Notes under the pieces: model-generated | What the model was told of the DNA's origin: nothing | Database searches by the model: none | Seen by the model: the letters and a program-made list of their open reading frames with translations, nothing else | Shown: positions 1 through 60,604 of the stretch, in pieces | Numbering within the stretch: the stretch's first letter is position 1 | Layout: each line of letters starts with the position of its first letter | Position numbers and translations under genes: made by a program | Origin: a virus | Lineage: Duplodnaviria; Caudoviricetes | IMG/VR virus record: IMGVR_UViG_3300043177_000122 | Location: 294,994-358,993 of that record | DNA: 64,000 bases | Strand: one strand, 5' to 3'

Positions 1-1305
1 GTAATACTAGATGAACCAATTGTGATGTCTAATGATGGAATTTTAGATACTAGAAATCAAGGAACTATTGAATTTTGGATGAGTCCACTTTTTGATACTG
101 CTAATGATCCTAACTTGAGATATTATTTCGATGGGTTTGGCGCAGTTACAGAAACAGTTACAAGTATCAATAATGTGTCTGTTAAAATTTCCTCGCCAGC
201 CTCTGAAATACTTAGTGTTACATTAGCTGCGGGAGATCCAAAGATCGATTATTTTGTTGGTGGTAAATTAGAAGTTGATACTCAACACGCTTTACAAGAA
301 GATGCTATAGTTATGGGCACTTCTGTGGTTGTAGTTTCTCAGCCAATACTACAAGTAATTTCTGTTAAGGCTATTGGTGATTTTACTGAAAAAGATTACT
401 ATGCTGGTGGAACAGTAGGAGCTGATCGTAAAACCATTTTCCTAGGCACAGGTCTACCACAACCAAACATGCAAGTTTTGGTTACTTATCAAACAACAAA
501 TAACAATAATGTTACAATTAACACCCAGGTTATTAGATTAAACAGAAGATTGCCTGCTCAAAATTCTAAAGTTGTTGTAACTTACCTTCCAACTGGACTT
601 CAGGGCGACCGTATCTCAATTTATAAGGATCTCTATGGTTACATTAATTTCCAGATCAGAGCATCCGGGTTTGACTATGTAGTTCGAGGCCCAACTCGTT
701 GGGCTAGAAATACTTGGCATCGTGTTAAGGCTAGCTACAAAATCAACGGCGGAGTTGGAAACGATGAAATGAGACTGTTCCTTGATGGGTATCAGTATAC
801 TGATGTTCTGTATGGTCAAGGTCTTCAATTTGGTAAGTTTCCTATGGTTTATGGTTCTGTATCTGTTGGTGATGGATATGGTTTGATTGGAAGTATTCCA
901 TTCAAAGACCCGATTAACATTTTGAATATTGGTGCTGATTACAAAAAGAACAACTCAATATTCACTTTACTAGATAACTTTAGAGTAAGCAACATATCCA
1001 GGCCAATTTATGCGCCATACGGTGAGCCTTTAGATGCTAACTTCAGCAGCAATTTAAGTACCGTCTTCCCTGTTACTAAAGACCTATATACTACTTTGTT
1101 GTTAGATTTTGATAGGTTGAATGCCTTAAATACGAATTTTGCTACATTGATCAATAGAGCAACTGGAGCATTTGATTTTACTGTAAATATCTTCGATTCT
1201 TTTGGTATAGTAAGTAGTAGTGCTAAAGTTAAAGAAGTACTTGAAAACCTTATCAATATCCTGAAGCCAGCCAACTCCAGGGTGTTTATCAAGTATATTA
1301 CCTGA
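1..1305 (+). CDS. Virion structural protein (5'-truncated by window edge): LamG/concanavalin-A-like domain plus baseplate-type C-terminus
   Basis: Frame is open from base 1 (VILDEPIVMS...). LamG-like motifs GTIEFWMSP, WHRVKASY, MRLFLDG. C-terminus LINILKPANSRVFIKY resembles phage baseplate wedge termini. Confidence 0.7.
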   Translation, partial: VILDEPIVMSNDGILDTRNQGTIEFWMSPLFDTANDPNLRYYFDGFGAVTETVTSINNVSVKISSPASEILSVTLAAGDPKIDYFVGGKLEVDTQHALQEDAIVMGTSVVVVSQPILQVISVKAIGDFTEKDYYAGGTVGADRKTIFLGTGLPQPNMQVLVTYQTTNNNNVTINTQVIRLNRRLPAQNSKVVVTYLPTGLQGDRISIYKDLYGYINFQIRASGFDYVVRGPTRWARNTWHRVKASYKINGGVGNDEMRLFLDGYQYTDVLYGQGLQFGKFPMVYGSVSVGDGYGLIGSIPFKDPINILNIGADYKKNNSIFTLLDNFRVSNISRPIYAPYGEPLDANFSSNLSTVFPVTKDLYTTLLLDFDRLNALNTNFATLINRATGAFDFTVNIFDSFGIVSSSAKVKEVLENLINILKPANSRVFIKYIT

Positions 1306-45138: not shown

Positions 45139-47412
45139 TTAAACTAATATTGGTGGTCCGCCCCAAAACATAAACATTCCTCGTCTAATATGCATAAATG
45201 CGCGAGAAGTATCATGAGTTAATGTATATTCTCCGAAATTAGCTCTTCCTTCTCTTATATGCGGGATAGTTCCTATAAATCTCGGTTCTTGTACTGGAAA
45301 AGATGTACCGCTCCAGCCAGTAAAAGTTCCAGCAATCACATCTACTGGGAATAATTCTGTACCGCCTAACCAAGGATTATCTCCAGCGCTGCCGTCAAAA
45401 ATAGGGCTACCGGTTTGTCCAACTCCACTAACGTATGTTATTAGTGATACTGCTGCTGATACCGGAATTGGAGTAGTAGTAGATTTAGTTTCTTGCATAT
45501 TTACTCCTTGAGCTAAATTACTAGCTCCTATGTTACCGGGATACCAGCTAGTGTCATTTAAAAAGTCTCCATTTGAACTGCCCGAGCCGCTGCCAATTGT
45601 AAATAGCCTAGCTTCATTATTACTTGGTAATGGTAAAGGTTCTACTTCTGGTATTCCAAACGTAACCAGAAAAGATTTAGGAGTAGTACCATTACTTGGT
45701 CTACGCCCAATCATGGTCACACCAAGACCATAACCATCGTCTCCAATTATAGTATGTCTATAAGTAGTATTAAGTGTTTGAGGATCTCCGCATCCTATGG
45801 CTCCACCTGAATAAGTTCCACTATTGCTGTTGTAGTATAATGGAGTATGAAGATGCCTTCCGGCAACCAAAAAATCTCCTGCTGAATTACCATCAAATCC
45901 TGGTGACATTGTTATTGGTGGACAATTTGCCTGATCGGTATTTGTTTCATTACAAATTCTAATTTGCCATCCAGTGGTGTGTGGGCTTTGTAAAATTATT
46001 CTCGGTGTCGTGGAATCTCCATTCCCTCTATATTGACCTGCTGGATTCGTATTGTTAGCTCCATTTGTTGGAGCGTTAGCGTCGCTAGCATACAAGTACC
46101 AATTCATACTATCTGTTGGTTCAATAGGCGGTAAACTTGGTGAGAAAAATACTGCTCCACCGGTTGACATAGTGCCAGTTCCACCAGTACATCCTGTAAA
46201 GGTTGTCTCTGTTCTTCCAGTATAAGCTACTTGTTGAACACCAGCGCTAGTTGTTACGAACACATTTCCAGATGGAGAAAACCCGGCAAATACGCTGCCA
46301 CCAGTTGACATTAATCCGGTACCACCAGTACACCCAGTAAATGTAGTAGCGGTTGTGCCAGTATATGCAACAGTCTGAGTACCAGCATTAGTCGTTACGA
46401 AAATAATTCCAGTAGTTGGGAATCCTGTAGTTGAGTCTACGTTAATAGTACCTGTTGGTAACCTAACGTTATTAGATCCTGAGGCAATTGTAGTTGTGGC
46501 TGTTGTAGTAGACGCTACATTGATGGTAGTTTGTGGTAGAGTTTGTCCGTTGGATCCTGCTGCAATAGTTGTAGCAATACCAGCTACAATCGGAGATCCT
46601 CCTAATACGCTACCAGTACCACCCGTACAACCAGTGAACGTAGTTCCAGTTGTACCAGTATAGTTAACTGTTTGCCTTCCTGCTGGAGTACAGATAAAAA
46701 TAGTTCCGCTTGTAGCAAATCCAGATGTTGTACTAACATTAAGGGTACCTGTAGGCAATGCAATACTAGCAGTTACTGAATTATTAGTTGACATGGTTCC
46801 AGTGCCACCGGTGCACCCTGTAAAGGTGGAGCTAGTAGTTCCGGTGTAGTTAACCGTTTGTATTCCGGCATTTGTTGCAACTAAAATTGTGCCGGATGTT
46901 GGAAAACCTGAAGTAGAAGCAACGTTGATAGTACCAGTTGGTAGAGAAACGTTGTTAGAGGCAGCCGCAATAACGGTCGTACCACTCAGAAAAATGCTAG
47001 TTCTATATGCAATACGATATGAATTTGTTCCTGTATCATACCCATCAATTAAAAAACAGCCAGAATTATACGTAGGATTAGAGGTACTTCTTAAAACTAA
47101 TAATCTACCAACATCTACTTGACTAACTACTCTAGTGCCAGCGGGAATAGATACAAAAAATTCTAAACCTGAAGCCAGATTAATACCAGCTTTTGTTCCA
47201 CCAGCAAAAGAAGGTACCGCGGCCGTAGGAGTAGAATCTGCAGTGGCAACTAAAAGTGTGCCCACTGAATTTATATTGAAATTAGTATCTCCAACATATG
47301 TATATAGTAATACTCTTCGAAGAAATATCGCCATCAGATAAGATGGAATATAATTTCTAGCTGGAAACGATACATTTTGTATTAAATAGTCTCGTAATAA
47401 ATGTCTAGCCAT
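45139..47412 (-). CDS. Modular virion protein, scaffold family A (757 aa): 4 TIAA modules
   Basis: MARHLLRDY, VGRLLVLRS, RIILQSPH, GRANFG. Confidence 0.75.
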   Translation of the reverse strand: MARHLLRDYLIQNVSFPARNYIPSYLMAIFLRRVLLYTYVGDTNFNINSVGTLLVATADSTPTAAVPSFAGGTKAGINLASGLEFFVSIPAGTRVVSQVDVGRLLVLRSTSNPTYNSGCFLIDGYDTGTNSYRIAYRTSIFLSGTTVIAAASNNVSLPTGTINVASTSGFPTSGTILVATNAGIQTVNYTGTTSSTFTGCTGGTGTMSTNNSVTASIALPTGTLNVSTTSGFATSGTIFICTPAGRQTVNYTGTTGTTFTGCTGGTGSVLGGSPIVAGIATTIAAGSNGQTLPQTTINVASTTTATTTIASGSNNVRLPTGTINVDSTTGFPTTGIIFVTTNAGTQTVAYTGTTATTFTGCTGGTGLMSTGGSVFAGFSPSGNVFVTTSAGVQQVAYTGRTETTFTGCTGGTGTMSTGGAVFFSPSLPPIEPTDSMNWYLYASDANAPTNGANNTNPAGQYRGNGDSTTPRIILQSPHTTGWQIRICNETNTDQANCPPITMSPGFDGNSAGDFLVAGRHLHTPLYYNSNSGTYSGGAIGCGDPQTLNTTYRHTIIGDDGYGLGVTMIGRRPSNGTTPKSFLVTFGIPEVEPLPLPSNNEARLFTIGSGSGSSNGDFLNDTSWYPGNIGASNLAQGVNMQETKSTTTPIPVSAAVSLITYVSGVGQTGSPIFDGSAGDNPWLGGTELFPVDVIAGTFTGWSGTSFPVQEPRFIGTIPHIREGRANFGEYTLTHDTSRAFMHIRRGMFMFWGGPPILV
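46531..46572. repeat. 42 bp dispersed repeat, copy 1
   Basis: ttgtggtagagtttgtccgttggatcctgctgcaatagttgt; 41/42 identical to 51919-51960. Confidence 0.9.
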
Positions 47413-49710: not shown

Positions 49711-52700
49711 TTATATGATGAAGAACAAGTTTGATGGTAAGATTGTGTTATCCCAAATTATGGCAATACCATTTTGTATATTAAGGAACTGTCCGCTTGG
49801 TGTACCAAATCTGTGATAGAGTGGTAGTTGCGTGCTTGTAAATTTTAGAGTTCTTAATCTTACTCTGCCCAATGAAAATTGTCCTGTTACACCCGGCAAG
49901 CATAGTACACCATCTGAAGCTATTATAGTTCCTCGTGTTGTGTTGAATGCTAATTTAATGTCTGTAAGGTTAGCTCCAAAAGACGGCGAGCCATCTCCTG
50001 CTAAAGATTTAGATAACATTCGATGAACTCTAATAGTTCCAGTAGTATCTTTCATCCAAAAACCATTACCAATAGTTCCGTTACCACCGGCAGATGTACC
50101 ATCACATCTAAAAACAGTTCCATTGAATACTCCACCTCTTGTATTTACTATTACAGGATTTATATCCGCAGATTGTGGATAAAGTCTGATTGGAATTTCA
50201 CAGTGGAAATATGATGATCCATCTCCACTGTTTATATCTTTGTAATGCATCCAGAAGAATGCCGGATCAGCAGCCATTGTCATAGCCATAGTGTTAGCTG
50301 GGCCAGTGTTGAAGATATTTCCACTCAGTGTATTATTGAATTGTGCAGTTGCATCTATCTGCGGATCTCCAGTGACAGGAAATGTAAGGCCATTCCAATT
50401 TCCTCCTGGAGAAATAATAGTGCCAATGGTACCGGCAGTATCATTTCCAAACATTTGTACCTGGCTATTGGCTTGGCCAGGATTAATACCAACTGCTGAT
50501 GGATTGAATTGCATAACCATATAGTTTCCGTTGCCGCTACTAAATGTTTGAGCAAGTCCAGCATCCACAATTCTATAGTTGATATTTGTTCTATTAGTAA
50601 ATGATGGGTGTAGATTTGTTGGATCGGGAGTGCCCCCAGTATTCAAATTGACTCTAATAGAGTTAGGACTATTAACAGCAGTGATTATGTAGATAGCATC
50701 TTCAGTAGTTCCAGAATTTGGCTTCCACATTATTAACAGTTTTCCAACCATATTGCTGGTTGTAACTGTTTGTGTTCCACCACTGGTCCAAGATCCGTTT
50801 GGGGCAGAATTATTTAGGTATATACTATTACGATTGGCAATAGATCCTCCGCTTGTATATGTTCCTGATGCAAAAGATCCGTTTAATGTAGCAATTCTAT
50901 TGCTAATTGCTGTGGTTAAAAATGTGCTATTAGCATTTGGCAAACCACCTATTCCAGATGTTATAACAGTCTGTCCAGTTAGTAATGTATGGAAATCGGA
51001 AGTGATAACAGTAATTGGCGACAGTATAGTATTTCCAGTAGTCATTGTACCGGTACCGCCCGAACAACCAGTGAAAGTATTATGAGTGGTTCCAGTATAG
51101 CTTACTGTTTGAACTCCGGCGCTACTTGTGATATTAAAAGATCCGCTTGAGGCATAGTTAATAGTCACTGGATTGCCGGTTGACATGGTGCCAATACCGC
51201 CCGAACAACCAGTGAAAGTTGTGCCGGTCGTTCCAGTGTAAGTAACTGGTTGATATCCAAGAGTGGTTAAAACATAAATGTATCCACTAGTTGGGAATCC
51301 TGTGGTAGACGCAACGTTAATAGTAGATTGTGGTAAGGCTTGTCCGTTAGAAGCAACAGCAATCGAAGTATAGTTGCTTGCTGGAGAAAATGCCGTAAAT
51401 ACAGCACCGTCCGAGGAGGTATTTCCTGTACCACCAGAAGCCCCAGTTAATGTAGTGGCTGTTACTCCAGTATATGTTACTAGTTGAGATCCGTTAGTAG
51501 TAGTAATATAAAGTGAGCCAGTAGTTGGGAAATTGGTAAAGAAACCAGTATTATTTACAGTATTACCAGTAAACATAGTTCCAACACCACCTAGTGCTCC
51601 AGTAAATGTAGTTGCTGTTGTGCCAGTATATGTAACAGCTTGATTAAATGGTCCACCACCGATTGGGTTATTAATCAGTAAAGTACCAGTACCACCTGTT
51701 ACACCAGTAAATGATGTAGCGGTAATTCCAGTATAAGTAACTGAGGTAGCTGCATAAACAGTGCCACCAGTTGACATGGTACCACCTCCGCCAGAACATC
51801 CAGTAAAGGTAGTAGCAGTGGTACCAGTATATGTAACTATCTGAGAACCAGTGCTGGTTGTTACAAAAATTGTACCAGAGGCTGCAAATCCAGTCGTAGA
51901 CGCTACGTTGATAGTTCCTTGTGGTAGAGCTTGTCCGTTGGATCCTGCTGCAATAGTTGTTTGAATAGCGTTATCTGCTACACTTAGTGTGCCGCTGGTT
52001 GGAAATCCACTAGTAGTAGATACGTTAATAGTTGATTGTGGGAGTGATTGCCCGCTAGATCCAAGTGCAATACTTGTTACAACTATTGTTGCAACATTCA
52101 AAGTACCAGAGGTTGGGAATCCGGTAGTAGAGGCTACGTTAATTGTGCCTGTCGGCAGATTAACATTGTTAGAGGCAGCAGCTACAGTTGTAGAGGCAGT
52201 TGCGGTAGCAGCTACGTTAATAGTTGCTTGTGGGAGCGTTTGAACACCAGTTGTAGTTGTAAATGGTGCAACAGTACTTGAGTTAACAGTTGCTTGTGGC
52301 AATGTGGCACCGTTTGATGGAAACGCCGTAGTAGTATTAAAATATGTTGCATTAGAAATAGAGTTAGTTGGTGTATTAATAGTCCACGTACCATTAGCTG
52401 TGGTATTTCCAGTTACTCCGCTTACAACAACTGATGCCAAGTTAACATAAGAATTTGCCGCGGTCATATTTACTGAAATTGGAGCATACACAGCGCCATC
52501 AATAGACATAGTTCCTGTACCACCTGAACATCCTGTAAAGGTTGTTCCCGTAATTCCTGTATATGTAACTGTTTGTATACCAGCACTAGTGGTGACATGA
52601 ATTGTTCCAGAACTTGGGAATCCGATAGAAATAGATCCGCCAGTTTGCATAGATCCTCGACCTAAAGTACATCCGGTAAACGTAGTTGCAGTTATACCGG

Positions 52701-53484
52701 TGTACAAAACTAACTGGGTGCCCTCTGTTGTCTGCACATTTAGAAATCCACCTGATGGAAATCCTGTTGTGGAGGCTACGTTAATAGTGCCAGTTGGCAG
52801 AGAAACATTGTTAGAGGCAGCAGCGATAGTTGTGCTAGCGGTAGTTGTGGAGGCAACATTGATTGTTGCTTGAGGTAAACTTTGTCCGTTAGATCCTGCT
52901 GCGATTGTAGTTCTGTAATTAGAAACATTATTAATAGTAAAGCTAGTGTTTAAATTAGTAAAAGGATTAATATTTGTGGCATTAAAAATAGCATTGCCAT
53001 TAACGTTGGTACTTATTTGAGCTGGAGTATATCCATCATTGCCAATTGCTAAAACAGGAGTTCCTTCAGTAAAGTTAACTGGCCAAGCGAATGGTGTAGT
53101 GTTAACAGTTCCACCACCAGTATATGAACCATTTCCAGTTGATCCATTTAAACTAAATGTAGTTGTGCTTGTGACAGTAATTTGGAAGGTACCATTGGCC
53201 GCTAAATTACCGAGCACGCCAGAAATTGTAACTTGTTGTCCAGTAAATAAAGCATTAGTTGTGGTAGTGGTTATTACAATTGGAGAAACGCCAGCTCCCG
53301 TAGTGTTTGATACGGAATAGGTTGTGCTCATAGTGGTTGCAAATCCGCCTGGAGATTGAAGGCTAGAAGTACCATTAACGCAATATCCCCAGAACTCGTA
53401 GAGTATTTTAAGGAACTCGGAAGCTCTTCCAGTTTGGTTATAGTTGTAAAGTAGTCCTCGACAGAACCTTAGTGAAGTTGGCAT
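49711..53484 (-). CDS. Modular virion protein, scaffold family B (1257 aa), recursively nested modules
   Basis: FCRGLLY, FWGYCVNG; 8 TIAA-type and 3 NPI-type modules, most of them nested. Confidence 0.78.
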   Translation of the reverse strand: MPTSLRFCRGLLYNYNQTGRASEFLKILYEFWGYCVNGTSSLQSPGGFATTMSTTYSVSNTTGAGVSPIVITTTTTNALFTGQQVTISGVLGNLAANGTFQITVTSTTTFSLNGSTGNGSYTGGGTVNTTPFAWPVNFTEGTPVLAIGNDGYTPAQISTNVNGNAIFNATNINPFTNLNTSFTINNVSNYRTTIAAGSNGQSLPQATINVASTTTASTTIAAASNNVSLPTGTINVASTTGFPSGGFLNVQTTEGTQLVLYTGITATTFTGCTLGRGSMQTGGSISIGFPSSGTIHVTTSAGIQTVTYTGITGTTFTGCSGGTGTMSIDGAVYAPISVNMTAANSYVNLASVVVSGVTGNTTANGTWTINTPTNSISNATYFNTTTAFPSNGATLPQATVNSSTVAPFTTTTGVQTLPQATINVAATATASTTVAAASNNVNLPTGTINVASTTGFPTSGTLNVATIVVTSIALGSSGQSLPQSTINVSTTSGFPTSGTLSVADNAIQTTIAAGSNGQALPQGTINVASTTGFAASGTIFVTTSTGSQIVTYTGTTATTFTGCSGGGGTMSTGGTVYAATSVTYTGITATSFTGVTGGTGTLLINNPIGGGPFNQAVTYTGTTATTFTGALGGVGTMFTGNTVNNTGFFTNFPTTGSLYITTTNGSQLVTYTGVTATTLTGASGGTGNTSSDGAVFTAFSPASNYTSIAVASNGQALPQSTINVASTTGFPTSGYIYVLTTLGYQPVTYTGTTGTTFTGCSGGIGTMSTGNPVTINYASSGSFNITSSAGVQTVSYTGTTHNTFTGCSGGTGTMTTGNTILSPITVITSDFHTLLTGQTVITSGIGGLPNANSTFLTTAISNRIATLNGSFASGTYTSGGSIANRNSIYLNNSAPNGSWTSGGTQTVTTSNMVGKLLIMWKPNSGTTEDAIYIITAVNSPNSIRVNLNTGGTPDPTNLHPSFTNRTNINYRIVDAGLAQTFSSGNGNYMVMQFNPSAVGINPGQANSQVQMFGNDTAGTIGTIISPGGNWNGLTFPVTGDPQIDATAQFNNTLSGNIFNTGPANTMAMTMAADPAFFWMHYKDINSGDGSSYFHCEIPIRLYPQSADINPVIVNTRGGVFNGTVFRCDGTSAGGNGTIGNGFWMKDTTGTIRVHRMLSKSLAGDGSPSFGANLTDIKLAFNTTRGTIIASDGVLCLPGVTGQFSLGRVRLRTLKFTSTQLPLYHRFGTPSGQFLNIQNGIAIIWDNTILPSNLFFII
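51919..51960. repeat. 42 bp dispersed repeat, copy 2
   Basis: ttgtggtagagcttgtccgttggatcctgctgcaatagttgt. Confidence 0.9.
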
Positions 53485-53523: not shown

Positions 53524-54483
53524 TTATGCAAACCAAGTATCTATCACTTCAGGAGTAGAATATGGGCCTGAGCACGGGAAAGCTGGTGCATTTGCTAAAG
53601 AAATTTGCGTATCAACCCAAACAACCGGAGTAGGAGTGACGCAGGATGTATCATAAGCTCTCAATTTGTAATATTGAACGGCGCTAGTAACTGTGATTGG
53701 TAGTGCTCCAACTTTATAAATCAACTTAAAATAGTCTAATGTTCTTTCTACGTTGGCCACTCTAATATCTTGAATAAGAATATTTGGCTCTTCTTTGTTA
53801 GATGAGCCAGTTGCAGTAATAGCTCCAGTTCTCCAGAAACCAAATCCGTTAATACCATCTGTATAAGATATTGAGGCTGCCGGAAATGTATTAAGCTGAA
53901 CACCAGCCGAATATCTAATACATTGAATGCCATTTAAATAAGCTCTTACAGATGTTCCATCGTAAGACATTCCTATATGAGACCATTGTTGTAATGGAAT
54001 TGGAAAATCTGTAACGTTAAATGAAGCATTTGTAGAAGAATTTAAAGCGAGTTCTGCTCCCCAATCTTGACCACCATTAGATGTAAACGTGGATAAATTA
54101 ATAGCCTGAAATGGTGCTGCCCAACTTGATGTAATTGTACTATCTCTGTATTCTTTAGCAACTATTGTTGTATTATTAGAAGTGGTGTAAGATTTTAAAT
54201 ATATCCAACAAGAAAGAGAAATTGGAGGGCTTGGATTTATCGTTCTAGCTCCAGCGGCATAATTTCTAGTTGCAGAAGCTCCTGTTGGGTAATTTCCTGT
54301 GCTAGGAAATTGTGCACAAGGATCATCGAATACGCCCGTACCAGTTCTTACTATCGTATTGGTAATGTTTAAATCTGTAGTAGTATCATTAGGAGATAGA
54401 GAGCCCGAATTTCTATAAGGCCCCGAAGTTTCATTCAACCTCCATACTAAAATATCATTTACATCAGGTGGTATTCTGGCCAT
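53524..54483 (-). CDS. LamG/concanavalin-A-like lectin-domain protein with C-terminal YYK module
   Basis: VWRLNE, SLSCWI, WSHIGMSYDG...YLNG, IQDIRV. Confidence 0.8.
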   Translation of the reverse strand: MARIPPDVNDILVWRLNETSGPYRNSGSLSPNDTTTDLNITNTIVRTGTGVFDDPCAQFPSTGNYPTGASATRNYAAGARTINPSPPISLSCWIYLKSYTTSNNTTIVAKEYRDSTITSSWAAPFQAINLSTFTSNGGQDWGAELALNSSTNASFNVTDFPIPLQQWSHIGMSYDGTSVRAYLNGIQCIRYSAGVQLNTFPAASISYTDGINGFGFWRTGAITATGSSNKEEPNILIQDIRVANVERTLDYFKLIYKVGALPITVTSAVQYYKLRAYDTSCVTPTPVVWVDTQISLANAPAFPCSGPYSTPEVIDTWFA

Positions 54484-54486
54484 ATG

Positions 54487-55428
54487 TTAAAATCCTAGTT
54501 TTGTCCAAGAGCCTACAATTTCTATTGGCCCAAGATTGCCGCCACATGGAGCAGGAGGTGCTCCGTTATAGTTTATTCCTGTAGAAATCCAATAAACAGG
54601 ATTTGAAGTAGCACAATTAGTGTCATATGCTCTTAACTTATAATACCTAGTTAAAGGGCTTGTCCCTGTACCAGGAGATAATACTCCATTTCTATATATA
54701 TTCTGGAAATATGATTGTGGTCTAACTATATTCGCAATTCTAAAATCACAAATTGAAACAACTGGCTCTTCTGGATTTCCAGACCCCGATGGAATAGCTC
54801 CAAAAAACCATGGTCCTGGCGTGGATCCATAATTAATAGGCCCAGTTGAGGTAGCGGTAGCTACAACGTTTCCGTTTATATAAGCTATTTGCGTAGTACC
54901 ATCCCAAGTCACCGCAGTGTGAGTCCAAGCATGAAGAGGAACTGTACTCTCTGCTGATACTAATGGAGTTCCACCTGATGTTGGTAAAACAAATAAATCC
55001 CACTGCTGAGATTGGCCAGCATATGTTCTATTTTGTAGTTCGACAGAAGCAAATGTACTGGACCAGTTCCCAGTATTAGTTTGTTTGACCCATAAATGTT
55101 GTGTGAATCCTGTTGTATTATATGCTCGCAAATATACCCAACAAGAAAATGAAACTGGTGCTTGCGGCATAACACTATTAGCTCCAGAAATAAAATTTCG
55201 AGGACTGCTACTGTTGGCACCAGTAAACATGATACAACTATTAGCACCAGAAGCTGCAAATAAGCTTGGTTGCTGTAATAATATTGTTCCAGATAGAGTA
55301 GATAAATCGGAAATGGCATGTGACGGGGCGGAAGGAGACGTAGATGAATTTACGAACGGAGCGCCAGCTTCGTCTAATCTCCACACAACAATATCATTAT
55401 CATCTGGTGCTATTCTTGTTCCTGACAT
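54487..55428 (-). CDS. LamG-domain protein with C-terminal YYK module
   Basis: VWRLDE, SFSCWV, WTHTAVTWDG...YING, ICDFRI. Confidence 0.8.
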   Translation of the reverse strand: MSGTRIAPDDNDIVVWRLDEAGAPFVNSSTSPSAPSHAISDLSTLSGTILLQQPSLFAASGANSCIMFTGANSSSPRNFISGANSVMPQAPVSFSCWVYLRAYNTTGFTQHLWVKQTNTGNWSSTFASVELQNRTYAGQSQQWDLFVLPTSGGTPLVSAESTVPLHAWTHTAVTWDGTTQIAYINGNVVATATSTGPINYGSTPGPWFFGAIPSGSGNPEEPVVSICDFRIANIVRPQSYFQNIYRNGVLSPGTGTSPLTRYYKLRAYDTNCATSNPVYWISTGINYNGAPPAPCGGNLGPIEIVGSWTKLGF

Positions 55429-55437
55429 TAGTTTTCC

Positions 55438-56160
55438 TTATGGTACCGTTCCGCCAAAATATACATCAGCAAAATAAGATTGTGGTCTAACAATATTGGC
55501 CAGCCTAACATCCTGTACCATTATATTTCCTCCGTCTAATGACGTCGTGTCTGGAATAGTTCCTATGAACCATTTACCTGGATTTGAACTATTATCAACC
55601 GCTCCTCCCCCAGGGACTAATGTTCCCACTAAAGTACCATTTAGATAAGCTCTAAGTGTAGTACCATCCCAAGTTTCCCCAATATGAACCCATCTACCTT
55701 GTGGTATAAGATTTGGAGAATTAATAGCCAATTCTCTTAAAGTGCCGCTGGTAGTAACGTAAGCAATCCATCTTCCATCAGAAGTATTTCTAATGTATAA
55801 ACCACATGTCAAAAATGGAAAAGCCCAGGAATTAGCAATGTACTGCTTAGTAAAAACGGAACCAAAATTACTAGCGTATCTTCTAACATAAACCCAAGCA
55901 GAGATTGAAAAATTGGTTGGAACGGTAACTCCATATGCTCCACCAGTGCCATCGTGATTAGGAGAGATGCTTTGCCCAGGTATATAAACCCCTTTGAAAT
56001 CTTCATCTATCTTAATAATTCCAGGTACTTCGGTAAGCATGTTTCCATAATCTACAAGATCGCCAATCGATCCTAATGTTCCTAAATTTGGACGATTAGG
56101 ACCTTTCTCGTTAAGTGGATATACTAGGATATCATTTGCATCAGGCGCTACTCTAGCCAT
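55438..56160 (-). CDS. LamG-domain protein (no YYK module)
   Basis: VYPLNE, SISAWV, WVHIGETWDG...YLNG, VQDVRL. Confidence 0.8.
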   Translation of the reverse strand: MARVAPDANDILVYPLNEKGPNRPNLGTLGSIGDLVDYGNMLTEVPGIIKIDEDFKGVYIPGQSISPNHDGTGGAYGVTVPTNFSISAWVYVRRYASNFGSVFTKQYIANSWAFPFLTCGLYIRNTSDGRWIAYVTTSGTLRELAINSPNLIPQGRWVHIGETWDGTTLRAYLNGTLVGTLVPGGGAVDNSSNPGKWFIGTIPDTTSLDGGNIMVQDVRLANIVRPQSYFADVYFGGTVP

Positions 56161-56167
56161 CTATTCC

Positions 56168-57550
56168 TCACGAGTACACTATAGTTATTCGAGCATTGTT
56201 ACATATTACTCTATCTGTCACAGATCCGCTTGTTTTCCAAATTTGAACTTCATATCTGGTAGGAGCATCGCTTCTAATATTTCCTGGACTAGTACCCACA
56301 ACTAAAGGTATGGAAGTGTATTCTGTGGTAACAGTGTTATTAAATTGGAATAGTGTATTTGTAACAGCTACATTGTGTGTAGTATCAAATAACCTACAAT
56401 ATCCATCTACACCAACCGAAGAAACTTCTAGACTGGCTTTAAATGTCATACTTCTAGCTCTTCCACTATTATCTGTTAGTAGTGCCGGATACAGTGTAAT
56501 ATCCACTTCTCTACCACCTGTTCCTGCTGGTGTAGAAAATCCATTCATTTCTGTGCCAGACACAAAATTAATATCAGAAGGCATAGCTAAAGCTAGAAGC
56601 GTAGTAATTAAAACAGGCGGACTATAAACAATATTAATTCTAGCATTTCTACAGATAACTTGATCATTAGCCCCGCCACCAGTAATAAAAATTTGAACTT
56701 CATACTGAGCAGTCATATCTGTTCTCATCAATCCAGGAGTTACTCCTGAATTAATATTGGCAGACAGCTCTACTGAAGTTAAACTGCTGGTAGATAATGT
56801 ACTACTTGTAATAACAACATTGTTTGTAACATCTTTGATTCTTACGAAACCCGTGGCTGCCGCATTAGTTACTTCCAGATCAGCTTTAAAGGTCATAGTT
56901 CTAGTACGACCATCTAGAGTGGTAGATGGAAATGGTGACATATCTACAGCACGAGCGCCTACTCTGAATGGAGAAGAAGAGTTAGTATATCCGTCTCCTC
57001 CTACAAAAACAATATCAACCGGCAAAAGAATAACGGTTGGTAGAATATTTAAAGTTACACTTTGAGTAACTGGTTTCCAAATATAACCGTCCCAAGTAAG
57101 TACTTGATTGGATGTTGGGGCTTGAGTAGAAACTGGACGACCCTGTAATCCGGTAACATATGGAAGTGTGTGTGTATTTCCTAAATCTTGTGCTAATTGA
57201 ACTGAATTAGTAGGTTGCCAAACAATACCATTCCATCCTATAACTTGATTAGGTAATGGTGCGGCACTGGAAAGTGGACGATCCTGTAAACCGATAACTA
57301 ATGGATGAGATGGTGTGCCACCTAAATCTCCAGCTATTGTTACAACTTGCTGAGTAATTAAATTCTCAATACGGTCCATTCTAGATCTGACAGTAGCAAA
57401 TGTGCCGCTCGGTTTAGCTCCTAATTCATTTTCAATTGCAATAATGGCATCTCTTAGTCGATTGACCGTATCTCCACCAATTGGGGATTGGTTATCCTCT
57501 ACAAGAGGCAAAGTAACATTATTGTCTATCTGTGCTGGATAAGTAGTCAT
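56168..57550 (-). CDS. Fibre-like structural protein with duplicated approx. 135 aa C-terminal domain
   Basis: N-terminus like 57656 gene; GDLGG..P.V.GLQ.RP repeats; two YEVQI...D.VIC.NARI.IVYS domains. Confidence 0.7.
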   Translation of the reverse strand: MTTYPAQIDNNVTLPLVEDNQSPIGGDTVNRLRDAIIAIENELGAKPSGTFATVRSRMDRIENLITQQVVTIAGDLGGTPSHPLVIGLQDRPLSSAAPLPNQVIGWNGIVWQPTNSVQLAQDLGNTHTLPYVTGLQGRPVSTQAPTSNQVLTWDGYIWKPVTQSVTLNILPTVILLPVDIVFVGGDGYTNSSSPFRVGARAVDMSPFPSTTLDGRTRTMTFKADLEVTNAAATGFVRIKDVTNNVVITSSTLSTSSLTSVELSANINSGVTPGLMRTDMTAQYEVQIFITGGGANDQVICRNARINIVYSPPVLITTLLALAMPSDINFVSGTEMNGFSTPAGTGGREVDITLYPALLTDNSGRARSMTFKASLEVSSVGVDGYCRLFDTTHNVAVTNTLFQFNNTVTTEYTSIPLVVGTSPGNIRSDAPTRYEVQIWKTSGSVTDRVICNNARITIVYS

Positions 57551-57655: not shown

Positions 57656-60604
57656 ATGAGTAATTATCCTTTTAGTTTCGACAATAACATAACCCTCCCT
57701 GGTGTTTCTGGAAGTTCACAGGAAGATGTAGCTATTACTGCGCTTAGAAGTGCGGTTTTTGCCATTGAAACAGAGTTGGGCGTAACGCCTAGTGGAATTT
57801 ATCCAGATGTCAGAACTAGATTAGATATTTTAGAATCTAGGCTCCAATTTGGGGTTTCTCCGCAAATTCCAAATGATGGTTATGTAAAAAGTCCTTTATA
57901 TATCTGGAATGTGCCTCAAAATGTAGTTTTAAGCATTAGTGACGGCTACGGCGCTCCCACCGAAAATAGATTAGACGGCTCTCTTTATATGAGAGGTGGG
58001 GATGGTTACGCTAATAATCAACTTTATGTTAGGTTAAATGGCCAATGGAAGCCCGTTCAAACTGAACAATTTGTTGCATCAAATGATCTAATTGGATATC
58101 CTCCTGGTTCAGACGGGCATTTAGCTCAAACAGTTGTGGGTTTGTATAACCATCCATTTGCCACAACTATGAACTCTGTTGGTGCCATTCAAGATGGTTA
58201 CCATGTTACCTGGAATAACTTTACCAGTCACTGGGAAGAACAAACTGGATTTATACCAGGTCGTGATTTGATGGCATTTTCTGGCCCTTATGGCCGCACC
58301 GGTCAGCAAGTTATTGGTCTGCAAGGATTCCCATTATCAGGGTTCCCTCCAACTGACGGATATACATTAGTCTGGCAGGCATCGGATAACCGCTGGGAAC
58401 CACAAGCCCGTGCAGTTGTATTCGATGGTTATGTTGCTCGTGTTAATTTGAGGTCCAACCGCGCTCAACAATCACCAATTTTAAACACTAAGACTGGAAT
58501 TGTAAACTTTGGAACTGATACAAGTGGAGCGAGCCTCGGAGCCACCAACGACTATGCTATAATTTTAGGTGGTGACAGAAACCTTTCATCCGGAATTCAT
58601 GCAATCACAGTAGGCGGTTTTGCTAATAATTCTTCGGATGGCTATGCCTTAATAATTAACGGAAATTCTAACATAGCGTCTGCCCAAAACTCGACAGTAC
58701 TTAATGGAATTACCAACACAGCTAGCGGAATACGATCATTTGTACTTAATGGTACATCAAATACTGCTTCCGGTGTCAACTCGTTCGTTGGTAATGGAAC
58801 TAGTAACACAGCCGCAGCTAATCTTTCTGCAATTCTAAACGGATCTTCTAATAGTATTTCTATAGGATCCACACACACAGGTATTGGGTTTGGAACAAAT
58901 AACCAAATAACAGGCGGGGCAGCTTCTCAATTCTCTGTTATTATTGGCGGCACCACAAATGTAATTTCTAGTGCAGAAAATGTTCTGATCGGCGTTCCAG
59001 ATAGTTCTGATTCGGCCGCGCCACATTCTATTCTGTTATCTGGTGTAAATAACTCTATACTTACACTGTCTGATTATTCTGCGGTCTTAACCGGCGTAAA
59101 TAATACAGTAAACATTTCTTCAGAATATGGATTCATTGGAACCGGTCAAAACAACAGCGTAACCGGCCACTTCTCTACTATTTTGAATGCTGATACTTCT
59201 ACGGTTAATGGTCAGCACGCTACGGTTCTAAAAGGACTTAGCAACAGCGCAACTGGTCCATACTCCACTATTGTTAATGGTAATAATAACCTTATCAATA
59301 GTGCTGGTTGGAGTATTATCCTCGATGGATACAATAATAGTGTAACTGGTACCGGCTCATTTATTGCTGATGGTTACAATAATAGTGTTTCTGGGTTCTT
59401 TTCATCCATTCTAAATGGTAACTTCAATACTATTGCAGGTAGAAATAGCACTGTATTAAATGGTGCCAATAATACCATAGACTCTACTAGTGCCGAGAGC
59501 ACAGTTATAGTTGGAGCTAATAACTCATTCGTTAACTCGGCCAATACTACTGCAACTGGAAGTGGAAATACTTTCACAAACGCCGCCCAGACTTTTGTAA
59601 TTGGAACTACTAATAGTATTCAATCGGCCTCTTCGTTTATTAACGGTTCAACTAACACACTTGCAGCCGGATCTATATTTAACAGAATGTTTGGCTCCTT
59701 TAACACTATTGGCGCTAATGCATCTACTAATTTTATTATTGGTAATGCAAATATTATTGGCCCATCTAATACTACATCCAATACTATAGTACTAGGAACT
59801 AATAACTTAGTTGATAACTCTAATACAGTACTTATCAGAGGATCTAGCAATATAGCCAACTCTAATTTTGGTAGTGTAAGTGGTCAATTTGGTAAATCTA
59901 GGATGTTTGGCCAAGAAGTTAGAGCCAACTCTAGATTTACTTCTACTACCATTGCGGCTGGTTCTAACGGAGCTAGCTTGCCACAAGCTACAATTAACGT
60001 AGCATCTACCGCAGGATTTCCAGCTAGCGGATCAATTGCAGTTATTACCTCATTAGGTATGCAATCCGTGAACTATTCTGGTACAACTGGAACTAGTTTC
60101 ACAGGATGCTCTGGTGGTACTGGTACTATGTCAACTGGTAATGCAGTTGGTAAAATTGGTGAGGCTCAGTGGTCACACTTAGTATTAACTGGCATGGCTG
60201 CTGGTGGTGCGGCTGTTCCACTACAATTACAGGATGCTATTGCAGCTAATCCAACTTTTGTTGATGGTTATTCTTATGATTTAAGCATCAAAGTGCTTAT
60301 AGTAAATACATCTCCAATTACACCAAATCCTGTTGTTCCTGCAAGATATTATATTGATGTACTTGCACATCAGGAAAGTGGTGTCTTAGTTCTTGATAAT
60401 ATTAACTATACTTTATCTACACCTAACACGGTAGATAGTATATCTAGAACGCCTTGGACAGTTACAGTTTCTACCAATGGCGCTAACCAAATGTTAGTTA
60501 CGGTTGATACCGAATCAATTACTTCCTACGTGCAACCAAGCAATACTCCATCTGACAGAAGGGCAATTGCTACGATTGAAATGCGAGAAATTTCGAGAAT
60601 ATAA
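57656..60604 (+). CDS. Tail fibre/adhesin-like protein (982 aa) with YadA-head-like approx. 15 aa repeats and one TIAA module
   Basis: Periodic S.V..G..N.A..G pattern from about 58550 to 59900; GDL.G / GLQG.P repeats; 10 DGY motifs. Confidence 0.75.
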   Translation: MSNYPFSFDNNITLPGVSGSSQEDVAITALRSAVFAIETELGVTPSGIYPDVRTRLDILESRLQFGVSPQIPNDGYVKSPLYIWNVPQNVVLSISDGYGAPTENRLDGSLYMRGGDGYANNQLYVRLNGQWKPVQTEQFVASNDLIGYPPGSDGHLAQTVVGLYNHPFATTMNSVGAIQDGYHVTWNNFTSHWEEQTGFIPGRDLMAFSGPYGRTGQQVIGLQGFPLSGFPPTDGYTLVWQASDNRWEPQARAVVFDGYVARVNLRSNRAQQSPILNTKTGIVNFGTDTSGASLGATNDYAIILGGDRNLSSGIHAITVGGFANNSSDGYALIINGNSNIASAQNSTVLNGITNTASGIRSFVLNGTSNTASGVNSFVGNGTSNTAAANLSAILNGSSNSISIGSTHTGIGFGTNNQITGGAASQFSVIIGGTTNVISSAENVLIGVPDSSDSAAPHSILLSGVNNSILTLSDYSAVLTGVNNTVNISSEYGFIGTGQNNSVTGHFSTILNADTSTVNGQHATVLKGLSNSATGPYSTIVNGNNNLINSAGWSIILDGYNNSVTGTGSFIADGYNNSVSGFFSSILNGNFNTIAGRNSTVLNGANNTIDSTSAESTVIVGANNSFVNSANTTATGSGNTFTNAAQTFVIGTTNSIQSASSFINGSTNTLAAGSIFNRMFGSFNTIGANASTNFIIGNANIIGPSNTTSNTIVLGTNNLVDNSNTVLIRGSSNIANSNFGSVSGQFGKSRMFGQEVRANSRFTSTTIAAGSNGASLPQATINVASTAGFPASGSIAVITSLGMQSVNYSGTTGTSFTGCSGGTGTMSTGNAVGKIGEAQWSHLVLTGMAAGGAAVPLQLQDAIAANPTFVDGYSYDLSIKVLIVNTSPITPNPVVPARYYIDVLAHQESGVLVLDNINYTLSTPNTVDSISRTPWTVTVSTNGANQMLVTVDTESITSYVQPSNTPSDRRAIATIEMREISRI

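What the first reader, a model, noticed from the sequence alone, without database searches (positions are those of the whole stretch)
50770..52941. Russian-doll protein: balanced recursive nesting about 7 modules deep
About 720 aa of the 1257 aa protein parse like matched brackets. An NPI module opens (FTINNVSNY), holds a nested TIAA pair, continues (PISVNM...GTWTINTP), and holds a second NPI module (NSISNATY ... PITVITSDFH...YTSGG). That in turn holds four TIAA openers in a row, one complete innermost copy (51751-51972), and four closers, before the outer NPI closes (NRNSIYLN...WTSGG). The order is last-in-first-out: the two last openers run through TL.V and the first two closers restart at VTYTG, while the two first openers stop earlier (after TVNSST and INVAAT) and the last two closers restart at FPTTG and YASSG. 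Tandem duplication does not produce this pattern. The fold should be a long or branched arm in which the chain runs out and back through each domain. I know of no described virion protein with recursion of this depth. The opener/closer pairing is my manual parse.
Basis: partly seen in the sequence, partly recalled or inferred. Interest (0 to 1): 0.92.

Follow-up and report, generated by a model that had tools for sequence, protein, structure and literature searches.

The report
Self-nested beta-barrels in huge-phage fibre protein
A 1257-residue structural-type protein of a huge freshwater phage carries eleven small beta-barrel domains inserted into loops of one another up to seven deep, a rare design so far described mainly for the Si3 arm of cyanobacterial RNA polymerase, and close relatives differ by whole nesting levels.

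Summary
An HMM built only from uninterrupted copies of the ~72-aa "TIAA" module parses residues 191-822 as (F)((((F)))F). Opener and closer breakpoints are complementary in last-in-first-out order. The two outer layers are E1_FCCH-like ("NPI") barrels, which makes seven levels and eleven domains.

- **Rejoin test:** rejoined halves score as full modules; first-in-first-out pairings fail.
- **Orthologues:** 24 orthologues from other assemblies have balanced nests of different depth. They form a natural series in which the innermost module is whole in one phage and split around one more module in the next.
- **Structure prediction:** AlphaFold2 folds the single module as a six-stranded barrel (pLDDT 94) and the 724-aa nest at pLDDT 87, pTM 0.74. 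In that model a Uba6 FCCH domain superposes (76 residues, 1.4 Å) on a barrel whose first strand lies about 440 residues before the rest.
- **Spread:** nesting of this module is common. It occurs in 42 of 149 unrelated representative proteins, at three loops.

The design itself is not new: cyanobacterial RNA polymerase Si3 is a solved recursive nest, called six levels in a domain-insertion survey. I found no published virion example. Other agents of this scan have noted similar nests in cyanophage proteins on other DNA. The fold and virion role are predictions.

The parts
49711..53484 (-). Whole gene, 1257 aa (P0001). The database copy starts at M52, but residues 1-51 are conserved in orthologues.
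53107..53322 (-). N0: uninterrupted NPI / E1_FCCH-like barrel (res 55-126), outside the nest
   Evidence: Pfam PF16190, 29.5 bits, E 7.9e-7
52915..52941 (-). N2 first strand (res 182-190, FTINNVSNY): opens the outermost NPI barrel, level 1
   Evidence: Assigned by analogy with N0 and N1. Paralogue B648 lacks the whole block 182-903.
52837..52914 (-). S1 opener (res 191-216), TIAA HMM 4-28
52624..52836 (-). Ca: complete TIAA module (res 217-287) inside S1
   Evidence: 123 bits
52483..52623 (-). S1 closer (res 288-334), HMM 27-73
52366..52482 (-). N2 middle (res 335-373, PISVNM...GTWTINTP), NPI HMM 8-55
52339..52365 (-). N1 first strand (res 374-382, NSISNATY): opens the second NPI barrel, level 2
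   Evidence: Uba6/Uba1 FCCH aligns 76 residues, rmsd 1.4 Å, over model 189..704.
52273..52338 (-). S2 opener (res 383-404), level 3, breaks after strand 2
52201..52272 (-). S3 opener (res 405-428), level 4, breaks after strand 2
52087..52200 (-). S4 opener (res 429-466), level 5, breaks in the strand 3-4 hairpin
51973..52086 (-). S5 opener (res 467-504), level 6, breaks in the strand 3-4 hairpin
51751..51972 (-). Cb: innermost complete TIAA module (res 505-578), level 7
   Evidence: 122 bits; AF2 pLDDT 94.2
51646..51750 (-). S5 closer (res 579-613), HMM 45-72
51535..51645 (-). S4 closer (res 614-650), HMM 43-73
51382..51534 (-). S3 closer (res 651-701), HMM 27-72
51157..51381 (-). Cc: second complete TIAA module (res 702-776), a side branch inside S2
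   Evidence: 132 bits
51019..51156 (-). S2 closer (res 777-822), HMM 26-72
50842..51018 (-). N1 body (res 823-881, PITVITSDFH...YTSGG)
50773..50841 (-). N2 closer (res 882-904, NRNSIYLN...WTSGG), NPI HMM 56-72
49714..50772 (-). C-terminal scaffold domain (res 905-1257), shared with paralogue B648 and all orthologues. Fold not identified.

Best explanation
The protein is a structural, fibre-type protein of a huge freshwater phage. Its middle 722 residues (182-903) form one tree of eleven small beta-barrels built by recursive domain insertion.

**Two barrel families take part.** One is an E1_FCCH-like barrel (NPI). The other is a roughly 72-residue six-stranded barrel (TIAA) that has no Pfam family but is common in phage tail and fibre proteins.

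**The tree.** An outer NPI barrel hosts a TIAA pair in its first loop and a second NPI barrel in a later loop. That second NPI barrel hosts a TIAA barrel. This TIAA barrel holds a four-deep TIAA chain and one further complete TIAA copy.

**How the guests sit.** Each guest lies in a loop of its host, either between strands 2 and 3 or in the 3-4 hairpin. The chain therefore runs out through five half-barrels, folds the tip domain, and runs back completing each barrel in reverse order. In the model, host strand 3 continues without a break into guest strand 1, and guest strand 6 into host strand 4. This suggests a stiff, stacked arm with one side branch.

**Evolution.** The arm changes by gain and loss of whole modules at permissive loops, mostly at the tip. 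Related phages therefore carry arms of three to five TIAA levels.

**Shown versus inferred.**
- Shown from sequence: the bracket grammar, the complementary breakpoints, and the whole-level differences between orthologues.
- Predicted only: the barrel folds and the discontinuous packing.
- Inferred from neighbours and weak hits: the role as a projecting reach, adhesion or decoration arm on the virion. I put this at about 40%.
For: **Grammar and breakpoints**
- The HMM parse shows complementary last-in-first-out breakpoints.
- In the rejoin test, last-in-first-out pairs give full-length matches of 63-92 bits. Cross-class pairs reach only 31-68 bits and partial coverage.

**Natural series among orthologues**
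- P0015 has S4 whole.
- P0003 and P0006 have S4 split around a whole S5.
- This protein has S5 split around Cb.
- Diagnostic residues and trailing linkers are conserved across the junctions.
- In other orthologues the side copy Cc is itself replaced by an opener, full copy and closer.

**Structure prediction**
- The single module folds at pLDDT 94.2, pTM 0.82, with six strands. Its best fold matches are decoration or inserted barrels of phage tail tube, tail tip and P22 coat proteins, at Z 6.6-8.0.
- The 724-aa nest folds at pLDDT 87.1, pTM 0.74. Openers and closers reach about 90, and continuous 13-14-residue strands cross the host-guest junctions.
- The FCCH domain of Uba6 and Uba1 aligns 76 residues at rmsd 1.4 Å, Z 11.7, 29% identity. 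The alignment spans model residues 189..704, so it covers a split barrel.
- Openers 428-504 and closers 580-651 were given as separate chains. The ipSAE was 0.42 in all three runs against a best control of 0.00, and the tool's verdict was "weak support". The mark was reached by 51 of 78 solved complexes and 2 of 108 mismatched pairs. At 0.60 or under, only 5 of those 78 solved complexes passed, as did all 4 mismatches that passed. The runs agreed in at least 97% of their contacts. Partner pLDDT was 78 with its mate and 36 with an unrelated chain.

**Spread of the module**
- 2669 representative proteins carry the module. Of 149 non-orthologous ones, 42 contain nests at three recurring loops.
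- P0032 has an independent nest with mirrored breakpoints of about 50, 27, 51 and 49, closed by 52, one undetected closer, 28 and 48.

**Context and assembly**
- The window is phage DNA. Neighbouring genes are paralogues that use the same two modules, plus ConA-like lectin proteins.
- Module copies are at most 90% identical over at most 78 bp at the DNA level.
- Logan contigs of two freshwater runs hold the gene in one piece.
Against: - No experimental structure exists, and no contact map or PAE was available. Two of the five AF2 models had mean pLDDT below 70.
- The two-chain test gave only "weak support".
- Similarity among paralogous modules does not independently confirm which opener belongs to which closer. 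The Mantel test ranked the last-in-first-out pairing 29th of 120.
- Within each breakpoint class the rejoin test cannot tell pairings apart.
- Presence in the virion and any function are untested. The protein itself has no PHROG hit, and its C-terminal domain is unidentified.
- The two sequencing runs may be the source sample, so they are not independent support.
Confidence: 0.82

Rival explanations
1. The topology is nested in sequence, but the barrels are completed between chains. In an oligomeric fibre, the openers of one subunit would pair with the closers of another (3D domain swapping), giving an interlocked shaft rather than a monomeric side arm.
For: Recursively inserted HABAS domains in Si3 exchange secondary-structure elements in some cases (PMC11515920). 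Phage fibres are commonly trimeric (general knowledge). The two-chain prediction shows that the halves can associate in trans.
Against: The monomer AF2 model is already confident and compact, at pTM 0.74. The split FCCH-like barrel closes within one chain at 1.4 Å rmsd to a solved FCCH domain. There is no coiled-coil or other trimerisation signal in the nest.
Confidence: 0.08
2. The pattern arose from independent tandem duplications of half-modules. Runs of openers and runs of closers would then be separate repeat arrays, for example stacked hairpins, and not interrupted domains.
For: Formally, duplicating N-M and then C gives N-M-N-M-C-C, the same string as a hairpin-site insertion (my reasoning). 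The paralogue-similarity test did not single out the last-in-first-out pairing.
Against: - Two breakpoint classes are mirrored exactly.
- Orthologues differ by whole balanced levels, never by unpaired halves.
- The innermost copy Cb is most like S1 and Cc (N part 91% and 82% identity) and less like its host S5 (68% in the N part, 50% in the C part).
- P0003 has an intact version of S5.
- AF2 builds complete six-strand patterns from the opener and closer pairs.
Confidence: 0.06
3. The nest is an assembly artefact, caused by mis-joining repeated DNA in a metagenome.
For: The gene is repeat-rich and comes from a metagenome. The two runs that hold it may be the source sample.
Against: - Five orthologues at 65-86% identity from other assemblies have the same bracket string, and 19 more have balanced variants.
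- DNA copies share at most 90% identity over at most 78 bp, with no long exact repeats.
- Logan contigs of two runs carry the whole gene with 0 differences and 0 gaps.
- The reading frame is open for 1257 codons.
Confidence: 0.02
4. The TIAA units are NHL-type beta-propeller blades, so the runs of openers would be successive blades.
For: A profile of the module hits the designed Pizza (NHL-derived) propellers at a whole-sequence E of 3.9e-6, over module positions 4-43.
Against: Each repeat scores only about 10 bits, with an i-Evalue of 5-70. The significance comes from summing six identical designed blades. AF2 gives a closed six-stranded barrel at pLDDT 94, and the fold matches are barrels, not propellers.
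Confidence: 0.02

Closest known systems
Si3 insertion of cyanobacterial RNA polymerase beta' (RpoC2): recursively inserted SBHM / HABAS domains (PMC10895346, PMC11515920, PMC13114784)
   Same: - Copies of one small beta domain are inserted into one another.
- Four of the eight Si3 domains are built from distant parts of the chain.
- A domain-insertion survey describes six-level nesting.
- The product is an elongated arm, about 150 x 50 Å.
- Relatives have fewer, un-nested copies.
   Different: - The fold differs: sandwich-barrel hybrid motif there, against an EF-Tu-domain-2/FCCH-type six-stranded barrel here.
- The host differs: a trigger loop of an essential enzyme there, against a phage structural-type protein here.
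- Here two barrel families take part, and the depth is seven.
- Here the depth changes between orthologues of 60-86% identity, and nesting recurs in many unrelated proteins of the module family.
- Si3 is solved experimentally. This protein is only predicted.
E1 FCCH domain (Pfam PF16190; Uba1, Uba6)
   Same: The NPI modules match the Pfam model: 29.5 bits for N0 and up to 51 bits in paralogues. The split N1 barrel superposes on the Uba6 FCCH domain at Z 11.7, rmsd 1.4 Å, 29% identity. FCCH is itself an inserted domain in E1, which I state from general knowledge and did not test here.
   Different: There is no E1 context and no catalytic cysteine half-domain role. Here the barrel serves as a host that is opened in two different loops.
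Inserted or decoration beta-barrels of phage virion proteins: P22 coat I-domain (2m5s), phage Mystique tail tube (9n71), Chi and JBD30 tail tip/baseplate, lambda gpJ
   Same: They have the same small-barrel fold class as the TIAA module, at Z 6.4-8.0 with 72-75 aligned residues. They are used as add-on domains of virion proteins.
   Different: Those are single insertions or tandem decorations. None is described as nested in copies of itself. Sequence identity is only 7-15%, and Z below 8 may reflect only a common arrangement.
Split domains of RTX fibrillar adhesins that project ligand-binding domains (AhLap; PMC12077191)
   Same: A host domain in a fibre is interrupted so that a guest domain is held out from the axis, with both chain ends returning to the base.
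   Different: Those insertions are one level deep, heterotypic, and carry known ligand-binding guests. Here the guests are copies of the host, and no ligand is known.

Membership tests
Recursive (multi-level) domain-insertion architecture, as defined in PMC13114784 (A1-B1-C-B2-A2) | A host domain's sequence is interrupted by a complete guest domain, and the host halves together make one domain. | tested here: met
   Complementary HMM coordinates. Rejoined pairs score full length. Orthologues carry the uninterrupted hosts. The split FCCH-like barrel is seen in the model.
Recursive (multi-level) domain-insertion architecture, as defined in PMC13114784 (A1-B1-C-B2-A2) | Guests are themselves hosts, over three or more levels. 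| tested here: met
   Five TIAA levels come from the automatic parse. Two NPI levels add to these, giving seven.
Recursive (multi-level) domain-insertion architecture, as defined in PMC13114784 (A1-B1-C-B2-A2) | Discontinuous domains are observed in a three-dimensional structure. | tested here: inconclusive
   Only AF2 prediction is available (pLDDT 87.1, pTM 0.74), with one structural alignment across the gap and weak support from ESMFold2. There are no coordinates, no PAE and no experiment.
Si3 / SBHM (HABAS, CATH 2.40.50.100) family | The domains have the sandwich-barrel hybrid motif fold and are homologous to the RNAP beta' insertions. | tested here: not met
   Fold searches return EF-Tu-domain-2, F1-ATPase N-barrel, FCCH and phage decoration barrels. 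No RNAP SBHM appears among the 50 rows listed in either search. The protein works like Si3 but is not a member.
E1_FCCH (PF16190) | Pfam HMM match at or above the gathering score. | tested here: met
   N0 scores 29.5 bits against a cut-off of 29.5, which is borderline. Paralogues A849, A585 and p966 score 51.2, 38.7 and 38.0 bits.
E1_FCCH (PF16190) | Structural superposition on solved FCCH domains. | tested here: met
   7pvn_A gives Z 11.7, rmsd 1.4 Å, 76 aligned residues and 29% identity. 32 E1 entries score at Z 9 or more, and 33 at Z 8 or more.
Phage tail fibre / virion structural protein | Homology to a protein shown to be in virions, or to a known fibre or baseplate family. | tested here: inconclusive
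   - This protein has no PHROG hit.
- The neighbours hit phrog_8510, "virion structural protein", and Laminin_G_3.
- AFDB clusters with the module are named tail fiber or tip attachment protein J.
- The atlas lead "Fiber protein" scores 0.88, below the reliability mark.
Phage tail fibre / virion structural protein | Detected in purified virions. | not testable with these tools
   This needs virion proteomics or cryo-EM. The phage is uncultured and comes from a freshwater metagenome.

The most novel reading that the evidence does not exclude
The TIAA barrel may be a self-inserting plug-in domain with three permissive loops. Huge phages would use it to build telescopic, branchable arms on virion proteins. 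Arm length would be tuned by adding or removing whole modules at the tip between closely related phages, possibly adapting reach or avidity to different host surfaces. If so, this is the deepest natural nest in a virion protein and a rapidly evolving counterpart of the static Si3 arm.
Probability: 0.3. Interest if true: 0.8.

Novelty: new variant of a known kind. Interest (0 to 1): 0.62.

Why it matters
- **Rarity.** Deep recursive domain insertion is rare. The one well-studied case, Si3 of cyanobacterial RNA polymerase, is ancient and fixed.
- **A system caught in motion.** Here orthologues of 60-86% identity differ by single nesting levels. The same module nests at three defined loops in many unrelated proteins. 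A paralogue in the same genome shows the empty site.
- **Questions it opens.** How do such architectures arise and fold? The chain must complete five barrels in reverse order. Which loops of a small barrel tolerate guests?
- **Use for phage biology.** It points to an undescribed way of building projecting arms on huge-phage structural proteins.
- **Use for protein engineering.** It offers a natural scaffold with mapped permissive insertion sites.

Tried and rejected
- **Opener-closer congruence.** A Mantel-type test asked whether the similarity pattern of opener halves matches that of closer halves under last-in-first-out pairing. It gave r 0.37, rank 29 of 120 permutations, and 12% of random permutations did as well. 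This is inconclusive, neither for nor against (one search timed out).
- **NHL/Pizza propeller reading.** Rejected; see the rival explanations.
- **PHROGs on this protein and its module-bearing paralogues.** No hits.
- **Megablast of the gene against 50,697 phage records.** No match.
- **BFVD fold search with the whole nest.** Only low-TM matches (0.06-0.15) to large cyanophage and uncultured-phage structural proteins, with no global equivalent.
- **C-terminal domain in the ESM Atlas.** Only sub-threshold leads, a fibre fragment at 0.88 and beta-helix families at about 0.8.
- **Complex prediction.** The tool's verdict for the opener and closer chains was "weak support" (score 0.42, best control 0.00). 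The details and calibration are given under evidence; I do not count it as proof.
- **Apparent "joints" in read laying.** These are short matches to paralogous module copies elsewhere on the same contig, not alternative assemblies.
- **Literature searches for a phage or virion nest.** Six queries found none in the searchable library. Subscription journals are not covered.


Full report
**Setting**

The finding lies in one open reading frame, window 49711..53484 on the minus strand, encoding 1257 aa. The window is phage DNA. It carries an endolysin, a PhuZ-like tubulin, helicases, ribonucleotide reductase and PhoH. The protein cluster holding this sequence occurs on a contig of 358,993 bp, and orthologues occur on contigs up to 498 kb. 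This is therefore a huge phage. Two freshwater metagenome runs hold the gene.

The neighbouring genes are structural-type.
- Four paralogues lie next to it on the same strand, and two large genes on the other strand use the same two modules.
- Three ConA-like lectin proteins follow; two of them and a third paralogue hit phrog_8510, "virion structural protein".

**Checking the observation**

I built an HMM from the three uninterrupted copies of the ~72-aa TIAA module only and searched the protein with it. It returned the following, written as HMM from-to.
- First nest: opener 4-28, a full copy, closer 27-73.
- Second nest, openers: 4-32, 13-27, 3-39 and 4-37.
- Second nest, closers: 45-72, 43-73 and 27-72, then a further full copy at 702-775, then closer 26-72.

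The breakpoints complement one another only if the last opener is closed first. A stack parser with a profile of 37 copies gives (F)((((F)))F) with nothing left over. Cutting the module into N, M and C parts gives a well-formed string with 8 N and 8 C parts.

The NPI module is Pfam E1_FCCH. Its outer copy is split at HMM positions 55|56, at residues 329-376 and 888-904. Otherwise the parse is correct.

**Rejoin test**

I used an HMM built from eight uninterrupted copies in other genes of the window.

| Sequence scored | Bits | HMM coverage |
|---|---|---|
| Five last-in-first-out rejoined pairs | 92.0, 71.5, 63.4, 92.5, 71.0 | nearly the whole model |
| Intact copies | 96-107 | full |
| Openers broken after strand 2 + closers that restart after the hairpin | 31-35 | positions ~40-69 only |
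| The reverse combination | 47-68 | partial |

All four first-in-first-out pairings therefore fail. Within a breakpoint class the test cannot tell pairings apart. A Mantel-type test on paralogue similarity was also inconclusive.

**Nature's own excision experiment**

A search with the non-repetitive C-terminal domain found 24 orthologues at 59-86% identity, plus the window's own record. All have balanced nests, but of different depth.
- P0015 has S3 holding an intact S4.
- P0003 and P0006 have S4 split in its 3-4 hairpin around an intact S5.
- This protein has S5 split at the same hairpin around Cb.

The intact S5 of P0003 shares the diagnostic residues of both halves of this protein's S5, including the trailing GGPF linker. 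The intact S4 of P0015 keeps the NxxGFF linker that follows the S4 closer. In another group of orthologues the side copy Cc is itself opened after strand 2 around a further copy.

On a tree of the C-terminal domain, depth changes several times. The depth-4 proteins P0003 and P0006 sit inside a clade whose other members and sister groups are depth 5. This suggests loss or recombination as well as gain.

The paralogue B648 has the same N- and C-terminal scaffold but lacks the whole block 182-903. Where this protein has FTINNVSNY...WTSGG, B648 has two residues between the PF(T/S) and M(V/I)GK motifs. This supports treating the block as one unit whose two ends belong to the outer NPI barrel.

**Structure**

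AlphaFold2 on the single module, with 37 aligned copies, gives pLDDT 94.2, pTM 0.82 and six strands. The best fold matches are small barrels.
- Phage Mystique tail tube: Z 8.0.
- GP4 portal-tail complex: Z 7.7.
- Chi tail tip: Z 7.4.
- JBD30 baseplate: Z 7.2.
- P22 coat I-domain: Z 6.6.
- Lambda gpJ, the F1/V-ATPase N-terminal barrels, EF-Tu domain 2, and the E1 FCCH fragment at Z 5.3.

AFDB clusters with the fold are named tail fiber or tip attachment protein J. Z values below 8 may show only a common arrangement, so I call this a fold class, not a family.

AlphaFold2 on residues 182-905, with 25 aligned orthologues, gives pLDDT 87.1 and pTM 0.74. Openers and closers reach about 90. Two of the five models were poor. 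Continuous 13-14-residue strands run from host strand 3 into guest strand 1, and from guest strand 6 into host strand 4.

The FCCH domain of Uba6 aligns 76 residues at rmsd 1.4 Å, Z 11.7 and 29% identity, over a model range of 189..704. In the model, therefore, the inner NPI barrel is made of a strand before the 440-residue TIAA nest and a body after it.

I also gave openers 428-504 and closers 580-651 to the complex predictor as separate chains.
- The score was 0.42 in all three runs against a best control of 0.00. The tool's verdict was "weak support".
- The mark was reached by 51 of 78 solved complexes and 2 of 108 mismatched pairs. At 0.60 or under, only 5 of those 78 solved complexes passed, as did all 4 mismatches that passed.
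- The runs agreed in at least 97% of their contacts.
- Each chain's pLDDT was 78-80 with its mate and 36-42 with an unrelated protein.

No contact map was available, so intra-chain packing of the TIAA levels remains a prediction.

**Generality**

A profile search of 1.84 billion representative proteins found 2669 proteins with the module at E up to 0.001, and 1085 at E up to 1e-10. Among the best 149 that are not orthologues, 42 contain at least one nest and 16 parse without remainder. Insertions cluster at profile positions 24-30, 33-40 and 48-51.

P0032 has an independent deep nest with mirrored breakpoints: about 50, 27, 51 and 49, then a full copy, then 52, one undetected closer, 28 and 48. 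It also has a second nest. In this window, B648 uses the third site and A757 the first.

**Artefact check**

- Module copies are at most 90% identical over at most 78 bp.
- Independent assemblies carry the same architecture.
- Logan contigs of two runs hold the gene in one piece with no differences, though these runs may be the source sample.

**Mechanism of origin (inference)**

The innermost copy Cb resembles S1 and Cc more than its host S5. This favours copy-and-insert of a whole module, or gene conversion among copies, over paired half-module duplication. The two nested pairs S1⊃Ca and S3⊃S4 share junction sequence. A757 carries a 71%-identical copy of the S1⊃Ca unit. Nested units therefore also move as blocks. 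The DNA events themselves were not resolved.

**Comparison with what is known**

Recursive homotypic nesting is established for Si3 of cyanobacterial RNA polymerase.
- The crystal structure has eight SBHM domains, four of them built from distant chain segments, forming a 150 Å arm (PMC10895346).
- HABAS domains are described as recursively inserted and partly domain-swapped (PMC11515920).
- A survey of 2.7 million domains calls it six-level nesting and finds most insertions single-level (PMC13114784).

The present case works the same way, with three main differences: the fold, the context, and the variation between close relatives. I found no publication describing such nests in virion proteins.

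Notes from other agents of this scan report similar nests in cyanophage baseplate and fibre proteins on other DNA. I did not test those.

**Verdict**

The architecture is a new variant of a known but rare kind. The fold and the virion role are predicted, not shown.

Noticed in passing
window 43185-45131 (-), B648; 45139-47412 (-), A757: Two paralogues carry their own TIAA nests at other loops. B648 has opener 4-55, a full copy and closer 51-74, which is the third site, inside YTG...FTGC. A757 has opener 3-29, a full copy and closer 27-72, and that unit is 71% identical to residues 187-333 of this protein.
   Followed up: partly
window 43185-45131 versus 49711-53484: This is a filled versus empty site. 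B648 shares the N- and C-terminal scaffold of this protein. It has only two residues where the 722-residue tree sits. Conversely, it has a TIAA nest in the loop after the M(V/I)GK...W motif, where this protein has KPNSGT.
   Followed up: partly
window 53524-56160 (-): Three tandem paralogous genes of 319, 313 and 240 aa lie just upstream. Pfam, run on the first two only, finds a Laminin_G_3 / ConA-like lectin domain in both. The second and third hit phrog_8510, "virion structural protein". They are possible sugar-binding partners of the fibre genes.
   Followed up: partly
window 53332-53484 (-), residues 1-51: The public protein record starts at M52 (1206 aa). Residues 1-51 of the longer frame are nevertheless conserved in orthologues and in B648, so the upstream ATG is probably the true start.
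   Followed up: partly
residues 595, 630, 682 of P0001 (window about 51439-51702): The nearly invariant Cys of the FTGC motif is replaced by V, A and A in the three split modules S5, S4 and S3 of this protein. The close orthologue P0003 keeps Cys in all three. The role of the Cys is unknown.
   Followed up: no
P0032 (1304 aa, representative protein): This protein carries two separate deep TIAA nests, about five and four levels, with mirrored breakpoints. It lies outside the 25 proteins found with the C-terminal domain. I did not test for homology outside the modules.
   Followed up: partly
window 57656-60604 (+), p982: This 982-aa protein has one TIAA module and a sub-threshold match to the grass antifreeze beta-roll (PF21300, 27.3 bits against a cut-off of 30). 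Its first 60 residues resemble those of the 460-aa protein encoded at 56168-57550.
   Followed up: no
TIAA module positions 4-43: There is local sequence likeness to the NHL-derived designed Pizza propeller blades (AAGSN..LP...G.....G.V.VT). It is probably convergent and is not supported by the fold.
   Followed up: yes
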